A stretch of 64,000 bases of DNA from a virus. Taxonomy: Duplodnaviria > Heunggongvirae > Uroviricota > Caudoviricetes. The first letter of the stretch is position 1. Every line of letters starts with the position of its first letter. Where the stretch lies: the IMG/VR virus record IMGVR_UViG_3300044295_000306; one strand, 5' to 3'. Made by a program: the position numbers and the translations under genes. The notes below the pieces were generated by a model. It had not been told where the DNA came from, made no database searches, and saw only the letters and a program-made list of their open reading frames with translations. Shown piece by piece: positions 6,192 to 9,541 of the stretch.

Positions 6192-7550
6192 TTATGTAAA
6201 AAATGCATCTAATGTACTTATCTTCTCTGTCTTCCAACCGATACATTCTAATATTATTCTTAAAGGCTCAACAAAAGACTTCTCAAACTGTGTATCATAA
6301 TCTATTACATTACTTAAGTCAAATTCTTTCGGTATTCTATTAACAAAAGAAATCACATCAGACTTAAATACATTAGGTTCTTTCAAATATATAAACTTGA
6401 TCTTTTCACCTTCAACAATCAATTCATATCTTTTTTCTAACTTCTTTTCCTTAATGAAATGATTGTATATCAATGAACCTCTAACATGAATGGGAGTACC
6501 TTTAGAATATATCTTTTTACTATCAGCATATTGTCCTAATCCATTCATACCTCGAGGAAATGCTATATCTTCAGGAGATAATTGCTTAAACTCGTTCCGA
6601 AAATCTTCTATAAATCTATGAAGATCGCCCTCACTTTTATTAATAATTATCTTTAGTGCGGTCTTGATCTTTTCTCGACATGCACTGGGAGTTGATGATT
6701 TCACAGCCTCTAGTCCCTGAATCTTTATAGATGGCTCTTTATAAGCTACACCTTCTGAATTATAAACATTCAAAATATATCTTTTCTTTGCAGTCCAAAT
6801 AGCCTTATCTGCTAATACTTCTCTTTTCATCTTCATCTTCTGATCATATGCATGAACATAATCAGCTAGATTTTGATAACTTTTATCAATAAATGGCTGT
6901 AATTTATCTTCACAAACACGATCCATAAAATCAATAATCTTGTTTGCCTCAGGCATCTTGTTGAATACACTCTTTACGATAGGACCAAGATGAAGATAGA
7001 TTGAATCTGTGTCTGAAGCAATCACATAATCTTTCTTATCAGTTTTCAATATATTATTCATGAATCGATTAATATCATTCTCAATCCAACGAATAGATAA
7101 CTGACCAGAAAGAGTAATGGCTAAAGCAAGTCTGATATCATAAAATCTAAAATATTGTGAGCCTAAAGCACCATAAGCTGAGTTAAGACTTACTTTCTTA
7201 GCCAATTGAAGATTTTTATATCTAGATATTCTATCGTTGATATCTCTTTTATTTTTTTCATCAGTTGCCGTCTGATACTCTTTCTGTGCTTCAATCATCT
7301 TTTTCTTATAAACAGTCCGATCATCATACATCTTCTCTAGAATTTGAGGTAAAAAACCTTTAAAGTTCCTATGAAAAAATTCACCATTTGGTGTTAAAGT
7401 TAAATTATATTTTTCTAAAATTTCTAAATTTACTTTTTTCTGTAGCATTACATCGACATTAACTTTACCGGATAATTCTAGTAAGTTATTAAGTTCAAAA
7501 ATTTCATTTTCAATATCTTCATTTGACATACTACTAATTTGTCTGAACAT
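6192..7550 (-). CDS. 43: DNA polymerase gp43, C-terminal fragment (43B)
   Basis: PolB motif B KVSLNSAYG, motif C ASDTDS, KKRY, GLEAVKSSTP; start moved to ATG 7550 behind SD AGGA. Confidence 0.95.
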   Translation of the reverse strand: MFRQISSMSNEDIENEIFELNNLLELSGKVNVDVMLQKKVNLEILEKYNLTLTPNGEFFHRNFKGFLPQILEKMYDDRTVYKKKMIEAQKEYQTATDEKNKRDINDRISRYKNLQLAKKVSLNSAYGALGSQYFRFYDIRLALAITLSGQLSIRWIENDINRFMNNILKTDKKDYVIASDTDSIYLHLGPIVKSVFNKMPEANKIIDFMDRVCEDKLQPFIDKSYQNLADYVHAYDQKMKMKREVLADKAIWTAKKRYILNVYNSEGVAYKEPSIKIQGLEAVKSSTPSACREKIKTALKIIINKSEGDLHRFIEDFRNEFKQLSPEDIAFPRGMNGLGQYADSKKIYSKGTPIHVRGSLIYNHFIKEKKLEKRYELIVEGEKIKFIYLKEPNVFKSDVISFVNRIPKEFDLSNVIDYDTQFEKSFVEPLRIILECIGWKTEKISTLDAFFT

Positions 7551-8220
7551 TTTTATTCCTAAAATAACAATCACGAGAACAATATATTCTTTTCTTTACA
7601 GAGTTTGGCGTTATTATCAAATTATTACATACGACACAGAAAAATTTATTTTTCTCAGGGTATGCTAATTTTTTTGGCTTCTTAATACCAAAATACTCCA
7701 GTCTTTTTTTCACCAGGGATTCACTTATAGAATATTTTTTCGCAATCTCTTTCCTTTTCATATTTTTTTCTATAAAATCATTATATAATTCATCATAACT
7801 AGGATCATACAATCTCTTATTTTTCCAAAAATTTTTATGATTTTCATATCTCAAATTATTCCATGGTTTAGGTATTCCCTTCAAAGAACCCCCTTTTGTA
7901 TCTGAGATATTAAACAATTTTCCTTTTTCTTCAGAAAATCTTCTTCCATATTCTTTTATTAATCTAGTTTCTATATCATATGCTTCACTTTCAGATAAAT
8001 TCTCATACATTCTCTTAATAATCGGCGGCTTATTTTTATTCATCAATGAACGTATTTTATAATATAGAAAAGGATTTACAGTTTCTTTAGGATTTTTCCA
8101 TAAAGACGGCTTTAAATGTGAACTATCTCTGTATCCTGAACCTTTTCCGACATAGAAAATTTCTTTAGTATCTTGATCAATTAATGCATATACATAAAAA
8201 ACATTTAATTCTGTATCCAT
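7534..8220 (-). mobile_element. Free-standing GIY-YIG (LEM-3-like) homing endonuclease with HTH and Cys4 zinc finger
   Basis: FYVYAL...FYVGKG...R..H N-terminus, E and N catalytic positions, KEIAKKYSISESLVKKRL HTH, CVVC...CSRDC; lies between the gp43 halves. Confidence 0.85.
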
Positions 8221-8251
8221 AGATGTGTCTCCTTAGACACATCTATTTATA
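8219..8251 (-). promoter_or_regulatory. RBS-sequestering hairpin plus overlapping late promoter for the endonuclease
   Basis: Minus strand TATAAATAGATGTGTCT-AAGG-AGACACATCTATG: perfect 12-bp stem 8219-8246 covering SD AAGGAG and the AT of ATG; TATAAATA at 8244-8251. Confidence 0.85.
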
Positions 8252-9541
8252 AAACTTTCTTTTTTCCAGCTCTTTTTTCAATTGTTCTATGCGCTCCGAA
8301 ATCATGTCTTTAGAAACCAATGTCTCAGGTGAAATATTATACTGTTGCTGGAGATTTGGATAGAGTGAATTTAAATCGAAACTAGCGACATAATCAAACA
8401 TACCAATCTGTGGATCTTTTACATAAGCACCTTCATAAGCACTATCTTTTTGTGATTGTTTCTTCGGCGATATGATTATATTCTTCATTCGTAAGAAATT
8501 ATATGTAATAGTATCCCACATCCTAACTTGCATGAAAACATCATCATAATTATGTTTGTTATCATAAGCAAGTGTCAATGCCATTTCTATCAATCTGAGT
8601 TTCTTTTCGAGATTTTCCACAATCTCAGAATCTCGAATATTATACTCAATATATTTCTGAAAGTTCTGAACATATAACTGATGCAAATTATCATACTCAT
8701 CATATGTCATCTTTCTACCAACACCTTCACTCTCAGCTATAACATCCAATCTATAGGATTCTTGTTGATTACCACCAGATTGATACTTCCTATATAACTG
8801 CATATAATCAATCGTACAAATACCGACAAAATCATATGAAATCATATCTTTATTGTACAAGAATTCTTTCTTTTCATTGACTATGTTCCATGGCGATAAT
8901 CTTTTAGTTTCTTTATCACCCAAAAGTCTGAGAATTCGATTATGAAGATATGGAATATCAAAGCCTTTGATGTTCCAACCAGTAAGAATGTTTGGATAAT
9001 TCTGTGACCAATAATCAAGAAACTTCCGAATTAAATCGATTTCATCTTTACACCGAGTATAAATAACATCTTCTCTATGTTTTCTATAATCACCATAAGC
9101 AAATACATGGAACATAGAATCCATGGTAGATTTTATCGTTATAGCAGTAATAGGTTCTTTAGCTTCTTCTGGTTTGGGAAATCCATTCTCTGAACTTACT
9201 TCAATATCAAGATAAGCTATAGAAATATCACGAATATTCCATTGAATATCTTCATTCAAGTGCTCATCCGAAATAAATGCACAGTCATATCGTGTATTAC
9301 CATAAATAGAAAAACCCTCAACATCTTCATATTGGGAGACAAAATCTCTAGCTTCACGAATACTAGAAAACTTCATTTCATCAAGATATATACCATCAAG
9401 AGATTTGTATTTTGTCTCTTTCTTGGAGGGCAAATATAAAGTAGGCATGTAAGCTATTTTCAGCTTGACATGCCTACCATTTTCTACACCGCGATAATAT
9501 ATGAAGTTTCCTATACAATTTACATTTGTATAATATCTCAT
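8243..9541 (-). CDS. 43: DNA polymerase gp43, N-terminal fragment (43A: exonuclease plus motif A)
   Basis: ExoI LDIEV, ExoII GWNIKGFDIPY, ExoIII YNIRD, motif A SFDLNSLYP, NISPETL, then TAG. Confidence 0.95.
   Translation of the reverse strand: MRYYTNVNCIGNFIYYRGVENGRHVKLKIAYMPTLYLPSKKETKYKSLDGIYLDEMKFSSIREARDFVSQYEDVEGFSIYGNTRYDCAFISDEHLNEDIQWNIRDISIAYLDIEVSSENGFPKPEEAKEPITAITIKSTMDSMFHVFAYGDYRKHREDVIYTRCKDEIDLIRKFLDYWSQNYPNILTGWNIKGFDIPYLHNRILRLLGDKETKRLSPWNIVNEKKEFLYNKDMISYDFVGICTIDYMQLYRKYQSGGNQQESYRLDVIAESEGVGRKMTYDEYDNLHQLYVQNFQKYIEYNIRDSEIVENLEKKLRLIEMALTLAYDNKHNYDDVFMQVRMWDTITYNFLRMKNIIISPKKQSQKDSAYEGAYVKDPQIGMFDYVASFDLNSLYPNLQQQYNISPETLVSKDMISERIEQLKKELEKRKFYK

What the first reader, a model, noticed from the sequence alone, without database searches (positions are those of the whole stretch)
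6192..9541. DNA polymerase gp43 split in two around a free-standing GIY-YIG endonuclease
Seen: exonuclease plus motif A end at NISPETL...TAG (8243); motifs B and C start in a separate ORF with its own SD (7550); a 228-aa GIY-YIG ORF fills the gap, with 22 nt on one side and a 17-nt overlap on the other. No room or motifs for a group I intron core, and no intein ends. Known: split gp43 exists in some Aeromonas T4-like phages (as I recall, in the fingers), and Aeh1 nrdA is split by mobE and works as a protein complex. Inference: a heterodimeric PolB broken in the palm between motif A and the fingers.
Basis: partly seen in the sequence, partly recalled or inferred. Interest (0 to 1): 0.8.

Follow-up and report, generated by a model that had tools for sequence, protein, structure and literature searches.

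The report
Phage DNA polymerase split by endonuclease
A freshwater T4-like phage carries its essential DNA polymerase as two genes separated by a mobile GIY-YIG endonuclease gene, at a break point not reported before; many uncultured relatives share this layout, which shows how an essential enzyme can tolerate a selfish insertion.

Summary
On the minus strand lie 43A (8243-9541, 432 aa: exonuclease motifs plus polymerase motif A), a 228-aa GIY-YIG gene (7534-8220) and 43B (6192-7550, 452 aa: motifs B and C, thumb). The gap is 22 nt, the overlap 17 nt, and all three genes use different frames.

The halves fit a gp43 profile end to end (positions 7-436 and 438-851). No intron model matches and no intein is possible. 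Contigs from at least six samples carry the locus at 99.97-100% identity, so it is not a misassembly.

The kind is known: Aeromonas phages 25 and 44RR have a split, active gp43. There the break lies in the fingers, about 65 residues downstream, and the endonuclease is unrelated.

New here:
- The break lies in the palm. Seventy of the best 120 43A-length homologues share it, but no deposited phage genome in the collection searched does.
- The new ends are conserved helices of opposite charge, and they are predicted to pack together.
- The insert comes and goes between near-identical polymerases (99.5%).
- The site holds other cargo elsewhere: an HNH nuclease sharing the DNA-binding module, and a SLOG protein.

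Most likely this is a working two-subunit polymerase. It is a new variant of a known kind and of moderate interest.

The parts
8243..9541 (-). 43A: N-terminal polymerase subunit (432 aa). It holds the N-terminal domain, the 3'-5' exonuclease motifs and palm motif A (DLNSLYP).
   Evidence: D112, E114, N190, F194, D195, Y300, D304, D389, L390, S392, L393, Y394 and P395 are invariant in 56 split alleles.
8246..8320 (-). 43A C-terminal tail (residues 408-432, LVSKDMISERIEQLKKELEKRKFYK), net charge +3. Intact gp43 has no such tail, and its pattern is conserved among split alleles.
   Evidence: 67 tails, mean 24 aa, mean charge +2.4. R417 is invariant and L425 at least 90% conserved. Residues 411-428 lie in the predicted interface.
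8219..8246 (-). Perfect 12-bp hairpin. The 43A stop codon is in its 5' arm, the endonuclease SD (AAGGAG, 8234-8229) is in the loop and 3' arm, and the first two bases of the ATG are in the stem. TATAAATA (8244-8251) overlaps the 5' arm.
   Evidence: -20.1 kcal/mol, z = -4.5, 0 of 200 shuffles fold as well. locates TATAAATA. The sequence is conserved in four GIY-YIG relatives, with one change on both sides of a pair (A-U to G-C in L050, beside one mismatch).
7534..8220 (-). Free-standing GIY-YIG homing endonuclease gene (228 aa): N-terminal nuclease domain, then helix-turn-helix helices, then a C-terminal four-Cys zinc ribbon.
   Evidence: Pfam PF22945. Y11, F22, Y23, G25, R31, H35, E84, N104, C195, C198, C214 and C218 are invariant in 34 homologues. 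The model has pLDDT 88.9 and a GIY-YIG fold.
7548..7560 (-). 43B ribosome-binding site (AGGA, 7560-7557) and ATG (7550-7548), inside the 3' end of the endonuclease gene.
   Evidence: The MFR N-terminus is conserved in 43B of split alleles.
7464..7550 (-). 43B N-terminal head (residues 1-29, MFRQISSMSNEDIENEIFELNNLLELSGK), net charge -4. It is an acidic amphipathic helix.
   Evidence: 46 heads, mean 29 aa, mean charge -2.8. E16 is invariant. Residues 1-27 lie in the predicted interface at heptad-like spacing.
7395..7463 (-). 43B residues 30-52. They are homologous to the intact linker but belong to the split allele type; this stretch probably travels with the cassette up to the conserved TPNG codons.
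   Evidence: L055 and L056 align at 92-93% DNA identity on both sides, but not between ISPE and TPNG. This is applied to the window by analogy.
6192..7550 (-). 43B: C-terminal polymerase subunit (452 aa): the rest of the palm, the fingers (motif B), motif C (DTDS) and the thumb.
   Evidence: K118, N123, S124, Y126, G127 and D180, T181, D182, S183 are invariant in 38 split alleles.

Best explanation
A mobile cassette sits in the gp43 polymerase gene of this freshwater T4-like phage. It lies right after the motif A codons (ISPET) and before the TPNG strand that precedes the fingers. The cassette adds a short basic tail and a stop codon to the upstream half. It carries a free-standing GIY-YIG homing endonuclease gene behind a hairpin that covers its ribosome-binding site. 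It gives the downstream half its own ribosome-binding site, a start codon and an acidic N-terminal helix.

Inferred: 43A and 43B are made as separate proteins and reassemble into one polymerase. The active site would be shared, with the motif A aspartate on 43A and the motif C aspartates on 43B. The native palm interface would hold the halves together, helped by the two new helices packing against each other. The endonuclease would cut intact alleles during co-infection and spread the cassette by recombinational repair. The hairpin would keep the endonuclease untranslated on the early polymerase mRNA.

Shown here: the anatomy, collinearity with gp43, conservation, the presence/absence polymorphism and independent assemblies. 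Not shown: activity, assembly, cleavage and regulation.
For: 1. Nothing is lost at the break. PHROG 262 is covered at 7-436 and 438-851 and Pfam DNA_pol_B at 25-95 and 92-237.
2. Relatives with intact gp43 have the same gp43-uvsX order: cyanophages and most IMG/VR relatives, including the closest one, L004, at 73-76% identity.
3. All exonuclease and polymerase catalytic residues are invariant in 56 43A and 38 43B sequences of this split type.
4. The tail and head are conserved in pattern and opposite in charge: mean +2.4 against -2.8, and +3 against -4 in the window. R417 and E16 are invariant.
5. Complex prediction scored 0.85 against a best control of 0.02. That mark was reached by 58 of 80 solved complexes and 2 of 110 mismatched pairs. 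The three runs agree in at least 96% of contacts and the partner's pLDDT is 87. Tail residues 411-428 and head residues 1-27 are in the interface. The core of this pass may come from likeness to solved intact PolB structures.
6. The endonuclease family keeps its GIY-YIG catalytic residues and a four-Cys zinc ribbon and has the GIY-YIG fold.
7. Homologues of the endonuclease at 58-64% identity sit at the same place in other phages.
8. The split state is scattered over the polymerase tree, with at least 24 changes forced by well-supported branches. A split and an unsplit allele are 99.5% identical over 390 aa.
9. The hairpin is strong (z = -4.5) and conserved.
10. The locus appears at 99.97-100% identity in at least six samples.
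11. Precedent: split gp43 of Aeromonas phage 25 co-purifies and is active, and the tails of Aeh1 NrdA are essential (PMC2988022, PMC3045599).
Against: There is no biochemical or expression evidence for this phage. No RNA run was available, so splicing is excluded only by sequence arguments. I could search only 64 kb of what may be a genome of about 307 kb for a second polymerase. Halves of a split enzyme tend to pass a complex prediction because they resemble solved intact structures. In Aeh1 NrdA the tails were not needed for the halves to bind, so the role of the tails here is a guess. TATAAATA is not enriched in the window (10 found, 12 expected), so the late-promoter part of the switch is weak. 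The window's own nearest intact relative is only 77% identical, so when this lineage gained the cassette is unknown.
Confidence: 0.8

Rival explanations
1. The insertion inactivated gp43. The two ORFs are decaying remnants, and replication depends on another polymerase encoded elsewhere or supplied by the host.
For: Only 64 kb of the genome could be searched, and the whole genome is not held. One related scaffold (L051) does carry heavily deleted 43A and 43B remnants around the endonuclease.
Against: Every catalytic residue is invariant across dozens of diverged split alleles. The tails and start sites are conserved. The arrangement is on contigs of up to 169 kb in many samples. There is no second PolB in the window. 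In T4-like phages gp43 is the sole replicative polymerase (established knowledge).
Confidence: 0.05
2. The halves are joined after transcription or translation. [quoted passage not shown] 2009.
For: Group I introns and split inteins with free-standing endonucleases occur in phage replication genes. Phage 25 has an intron in 43B, and PMC2677866 describes fractured genes. No RNA data were available to test splicing directly.
Against: No Rfam family matched at E up to 10 except chance snoRNA or miRNA hits, and no intron model matched. Only 22 nt plus the coding tails are free, which is too little for an intron core. The tails are conserved as peptides with fixed stop and start positions in 67 and 46 sequences. 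Together they total about 54 aa, have no Cys/Ser-1, no His-Asn and no +1 nucleophile, and the three ORFs are in three different frames.
Confidence: 0.04
3. The split is real and functional, but the tail and head helices do nothing. The halves assemble through the native palm interface alone, and the tails are neutral leftovers of the insertion.
For: Most predicted contacts are in the native core (43A residues 369-411 with 43B residues 57-72, 120-150, 176-192 and 234-256). In Aeh1 NrdA the tails were not required for heterodimer formation (PMC3045599, section headings).
Against: Tail length, heptad pattern, charge sign and single residues (R417, E16) are conserved across alleles whose flanking polymerase sequence is only 52-61% identical to the window's. 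This argues for selection. Both helices lie in the predicted interface.
Confidence: 0.2
4. Assembly artefact: a chimeric contig placed an endonuclease gene inside an intact polymerase gene.
For: The source is a metagenome, and one low-depth contig in run X7 shows a joint from 7109 to 8320.
Against: The same sequence, 99.97-100% identical, comes from at least six samples and several assemblers, with contigs bridging both junctions. The X7 joint has only 25 matching letters on one side at 90% likeness, which fits a related phage. Dozens of diverged loci show the same layout.
Confidence: 0.01

Closest known systems
Split gp43 (43A/43B) of Aeromonas salmonicida phages 25, 44RR and 31 (Petrov, Ratnayaka and Karam 2010, as cited in PMC2988022)
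   Same: A T4-type PolB is encoded as two adjacent cistrons. In phage 25 a free-standing GIY-YIG endonuclease gene lies between them. Motif A is on 43A and motifs B and C on 43B. The two proteins co-purify and are active.
   Different: The Aeromonas break is in the fingers (43A is 498 aa), about 65 residues downstream. PHROG 2062 and 1918 model that split, and the window's 43B covers the last 70 positions of PHROG 2062. The endonucleases share no detectable similarity beyond the motif. There is no intron in 43B here.
Aeh1 nrdA split by mobE (Friedrich 2007; Crona 2010, PMC3045599)
   Same: An essential enzyme gene is cut in two by a free-standing homing endonuclease. New C- and N-terminal tails arose with the insertion, and a hairpin sequesters the endonuclease ribosome-binding site.
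   Different: The enzyme is different, the endonuclease is HNH, and it is a single known case. Here the tails form a large conserved family and the cassette is polymorphic in natural populations.
T4 seg and mob free-standing endonucleases and I-TevI regulation (PMC2988022)
   Same: The nuclease is GIY-YIG with a separate DNA-binding module. It is inserted between or within conserved genes, rides on the host gene's transcript and is silenced by an RNA hairpin.
   Different: T4 seg genes lie between genes and do not split them. I-TevI is inside a splicing intron.
Fractured genes with split inteins (Dassa et al. 2009, PMC2677866)
   Same: Metagenomic phage replication genes are broken in two, with a free-standing endonuclease and an upstream hairpin between the parts.
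   Different: There the halves carry split-intein parts and are ligated by protein splicing. Here no intein is present.

Membership tests
T4-type family B DNA polymerase (gp43) | Exo I-III motifs and polymerase motifs A, B and C, collinear with RB69/T4 gp43 | tested here: met
   All motifs are present, divided between two ORFs, with no profile positions missing.
T4-type family B DNA polymerase (gp43) | Conserved genome context (gp43 next to uvsX, as in cyanophage-like T4 relatives) | tested here: met
Aeromonas-type split gp43 (43A/43B) | Two adjacent cistrons that together make a full gp43 | tested here: met
Aeromonas-type split gp43 (43A/43B) | Break within the fingers domain (43A about 498 aa) | tested here: not met
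   The window breaks after ISPET, about 65 residues earlier.
Aeromonas-type split gp43 (43A/43B) | 43A and 43B form an active complex | not testable with these tools
   There is only a prediction: score 0.85 against a best control of 0.02; the mark was reached by 58 of 80 solved complexes and 2 of 110 mismatched pairs. The pass may reflect likeness to solved intact PolB.
GIY-YIG homing endonuclease | GIY and YIG motifs plus catalytic Arg, Glu and Asn | tested here: met
   Y11, Y23, G25, R31, E84 and N104 are invariant in 34 homologues. Pfam PF22945.
GIY-YIG homing endonuclease | GIY-YIG fold | tested here: met
   Model pLDDT 88.9. Foldseek hits 9u75 with probability 1.0, I-TevI 1mk0 with TM 0.69 by target, and UvrC N-terminal domains.
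GIY-YIG homing endonuclease | Presence/absence polymorphism at one site among close relatives | tested here: met
GIY-YIG homing endonuclease | Site-specific cleavage of the endonuclease-less allele, and homing | not testable with these tools
   Needs an in vitro cleavage assay and mixed infections.
Group I intron with embedded endonuclease | Conserved intron core (P3-P9) flanking the ORF | tested here: not met
   No intron model matched at E up to 10, and only 22 nt are non-coding.
Split intein / fractured gene | Intein N and C blocks at the new ends, in frame with the extein | tested here: not met
   The tails are 25 and 29 aa without intein motifs.

The most novel reading that the evidence does not exclude
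The break after motif A belongs to a portable 'split-and-zip' module. The tail helix, stop codon, cargo gene, start codon and head helix would move together between T4-like phages by homing and recombination. They would carry their own heterodimerisation helices, so that an essential polymerase survives being cut. If so, the palm of gp43 has become a safe harbour for interchangeable cargo: a GIY-YIG nuclease, an HNH nuclease with the same DNA-binding module, or a SLOG-domain protein. A second such site would exist in the fingers.
Probability: 0.45. Interest if true: 0.7.

Novelty: new variant of a known kind. Interest (0 to 1): 0.55.

Why it matters
Split replicative polymerases are rare and show how far an active site can be divided between polypeptides. 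Here motif A and motif C would come from different chains. The break point is not the one studied in Aeromonas phages. It comes with a natural pair of short, oppositely charged helices that may act as a built-in zipper, which is of interest for protein engineering.

The arrangement is common in uncultured aquatic T4-like phages but absent from the deposited phage genomes I searched. Annotation pipelines and gp43 marker-gene surveys may therefore miscount or truncate these genes. Split and unsplit alleles that are nearly identical offer a natural system for studying homing without introns.

Tried and rejected
- Megablast of the locus against deposited phages found nothing.
- The endonuclease found no relative in IMG/VR by pattern scan. 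In deposited phages only its nuclease domain matched, at 40% identity or less.
- The 43B head of the common split type finds only the internal, homologous part of intact polymerases in deposited phages.
- The whole genome is not held, so I could not search for a second polymerase or further endonuclease copies outside the window. There are none inside it.
- No RNA holder was listed among the sequencing runs, so I could not test expression or splicing.
- The runs laid were contigs only. A joint from 7109 to 8320 in one low-depth X7 contig has 25 matching letters at 90% likeness. I read it as a related phage without the insert, not as a variant of this one.
- Terminator and sigma-70 promoter scans gave nothing above chance in the junction.
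- TATAAATA is not enriched in the window overall.
- I considered that the tail and head arose by duplicating the ancestral linker helix (DYTDEMR..II against SYIEDRK.KLI and TEELQKELQAI). The stretches are too short to test.
- Programmed frameshifting or bypass across 700 nt is implausible.
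Full report
**What is there**

On the minus strand the window carries, in order:
- 43A (9541-8243, 432 aa);
- a 228-aa ORF (8220-7534);
- 43B (7550-6192, 452 aa from the ATG);
- uvsX (6182-5136).

The gap between the 43A stop and the middle ORF's ATG is 22 nt. The middle ORF overlaps the 43B ATG by 17 nt, and AGGA lies six nt upstream of that ATG.

Pfam finds the PolB exonuclease domain and DNA_pol_B profile positions 25-95 in 43A, positions 92-237 in 43B, and a GIY-YIG domain in the middle ORF. 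A full-length phage polymerase profile (PHROG 262) is covered at 7-436 by 43A and 438-851 by 43B, so nothing is missing at the break. RB69 gp43 aligns to 43A up to residue 433, just after motif A. T4 gp43 aligns to 43B significantly from residue 552; a weak, not significant stretch begins near residue 452. The break is therefore in the first palm segment, between motif A and the strand that leads into the fingers. The motif A aspartate would be on one chain and the motif C aspartates on the other.

**Is it real?**

The three ORFs lie in three different frames. Contigs carrying the locus at 99.97-100% identity come from at least six samples in JGI and Logan assemblies. Contigs from two further freshwater studies bridge both junctions. 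Misassembly can be set aside.

**Not an intron, not an intein**

An Rfam scan at E up to 10 finds no intron. The non-coding space is only 22 nt. The new ends are 25 and 29 aa, lack intein motifs and are out of frame with the endonuclease. No RNA run was available, so I did not test splicing directly.

**Relatives**

Deposited phages reach only 46-56% protein identity. They are cyanophages with an intact gp43 of about 830 aa followed by uvsX. In IMG/VR the closest relative, L004 (73-76%), and nearly all others also have an intact gene.

In the large protein collection, however, 70 of the best 120 homologues of 43A-like length end about 25 residues after ISPE(N/T)L. Their tails follow a conserved pattern, for example LVERSYIEDRKQKLIEELKLRNTK, and LVSKDMISERIEQLKKELEKRKFYK in the window. 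About 45 homologues of 43B begin with a conserved acidic head, MFRNVKELTTEELQKELQAIELFEQEIGK, which is MFRQISSMSNEDIENEIFELNNLLELSGK in the window. The split at this site is thus a large allele class, seen on contigs of up to 169 kb. No deposited phage genome shows the head or the full endonuclease.

A second class of about 500 aa ends in the fingers. That is where Aeromonas phage 25 43A ends.

**The cassette moves**

I built a tree from the first 390 columns of 43A from split and unsplit alleles. The split state is scattered over it, and at least 24 changes are forced by well-supported branches. Pairs of opposite state are nearly identical:
- P0113 against P0132, 99.5%;
- P0076 against P0092, 96.9%;
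- P0060 against P0069, 95.9%.

At the DNA level L055 (split) and L056 (reading through the site) align at 92-93% on both sides. They do not align between the ISPE and TPNG codons, where 795 nt replace 119 nt. The exchanged unit therefore includes the tail, the cargo, the head and a diverged copy of the next 25 or so codons.

The window's own nearest intact relative is only 77% identical, so its own history is not resolved.

**Cargo**

Homologues of the window's endonuclease (58-64% identity) sit at the same site in L049, L050, L052, L053 and L054. Other split alleles carry different cargo:
- a 177-aa ORF with an HNH motif, whose N-terminal module is 43% identical (E 1e-10) to residues 138-198 of the window's endonuclease;
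- a 117-aa SLOG (YAcAr) protein.

**The endonuclease**

The GIY-YIG residues (Y11, Y23, G25, R31, E84, N104) and four cysteines are invariant in 34 homologues. The model (pLDDT 88.9) has a GIY-YIG fold followed by helix-turn-helix helices and a zinc ribbon. It shows no sequence similarity to the phage 25 endonuclease.

**How the polymerase probably works**

All exonuclease and polymerase catalytic residues are invariant in 56 43A and 38 43B sequences of the split class. This argues for a working enzyme.

The tails carry a mean net charge of +2.4 and the heads -2.8; the window has +3 and -4. R417 in the tail and E16 in the head are invariant.

A complex prediction scored 0.85 against a best control of 0.02. 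That mark was reached by 58 of 80 solved complexes and 2 of 110 mismatched pairs. The runs agree in at least 96% of contacts, and the partner's pLDDT is 87. The interface is mostly the native palm. It also includes tail residues 411, 414-415, 417-418, 420-422, 424-425 and 428, and head residues 10, 13-14, 16-17, 20-21, 23-24 and 27. That spacing suggests two amphipathic helices packing together. Because intact PolB structures are solved, the core of this pass may reflect likeness rather than independent support.

**Control of the endonuclease**

A perfect 12-bp hairpin (8246-8219; -20.1 kcal/mol; z = -4.5) holds the 43A stop codon, the endonuclease ribosome-binding site and part of its ATG. 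TATAAATA overlaps its 5' arm. The hairpin sequence is almost unchanged in four GIY-YIG relatives, with one A-U to G-C change on both sides of a pair. The HNH cassettes have a different hairpin at the same place.

This matches the logic described for I-TevI and Aeh1 mobE (PMC2988022). The late-promoter part is weak, because the octamer is not enriched in the window.

**Comparison with what is known**

Split gp43 with a free-standing GIY-YIG gene is known from Aeromonas phage 25. There 43A and 43B co-purify and are active, and 44RR has the split without the endonuclease (PMC2988022, PMC2677866). Tails that arose with an endonuclease insertion are essential in Aeh1 NrdA (PMC3045599).

The present case differs in four ways: the break site, the endonuclease lineage, the conserved complementary tails, and the fact that it is a common polymorphic allele class with interchangeable cargo. 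My literature searches found no description of this site, though the library is incomplete.

**Verdict**

This is a new variant of a known kind. It is of moderate interest in itself, and of more interest if the portable split-and-zip reading holds.

Two earlier notes of this scan on the same window, on the charge-complementary helices and on the hairpin switch, agree with what I found. I tested them in part.

Noticed in passing
L055:4323-4856 (also L060, L061): At the same split site other phages carry a 177-aa ORF with a C-terminal HNH motif. Its N-terminal HTH and zinc module is 43% identical (E 1e-10) to residues 138-198 of the window's GIY-YIG protein. The DNA-binding module is shared and the nuclease domain swapped.
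   Followed up: partly
L058:4301-4654 and L059: A 117-aa YAcAr/SLOG-domain ORF (Pfam E 2.7e-17), not a nuclease, occupies the same gap between 43A (435 aa) and 43B (455 aa).
   Followed up: partly
L057:3501-6049; L034:5992-9722: A second recurrent split lies in the fingers, the same site as Aeromonas phage 25. L057 has 497 + 341 aa with a 30-nt gap and no cargo. L034 has 491 + 366 aa with three small ORFs (108, 67 and 208 aa) between. Twenty-six of the best 120 43A homologues fall in this length class. Their tails end ...ELEKRGL, which resembles the tails at the other site.
   Followed up: partly
L056:3740-3790: A gp43 that reads through the split site has an in-frame TAG where relatives have the conserved Tyr just before motif C (DYVIASDTDS). 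This could be a sequencing error, a nonsense mutation or a recoded stop.
   Followed up: no
L050:4397-6552; L061:6331-7206; L053:5514-5927: More insertions sit next to gp43 in relatives. In L050 uvsX appears split (RecA_N 302 aa, a 231-aa ORF, then T4_UVSX_C). In L061 a PT-HINT ORF follows 43B. In L053 an antisense HNH_3 ORF follows 43B.
   Followed up: no
L051:3024-5387: An 84-kb scaffold carries an endonuclease homologue flanked only by remnants of 43A (aa 3-53 and 365-427) and 43B (aa 1-89 and 204-447). A JGI contig with the identical endonuclease (L052) has normal halves. This is either an assembly collapse or a defective genome.
   Followed up: no
window 1-64000: The window's proteins occur on a contig of 307,349 bp from freshwater metagenomes, which is large for a T4-like phage. 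Nine of the ten TATAAATA octamers lie on the coding (minus) strand, several just upstream of ORF starts.
   Followed up: no
window 7906-8199 (nuclease domain of the endonuclease): The closest solved structure is PD-T4-3, a GIY-YIG restriction endonuclease of E. coli specific for 5hmC DNA (9u75, 29% identity, probability 1.0). It is closer than I-TevI.
   Followed up: no
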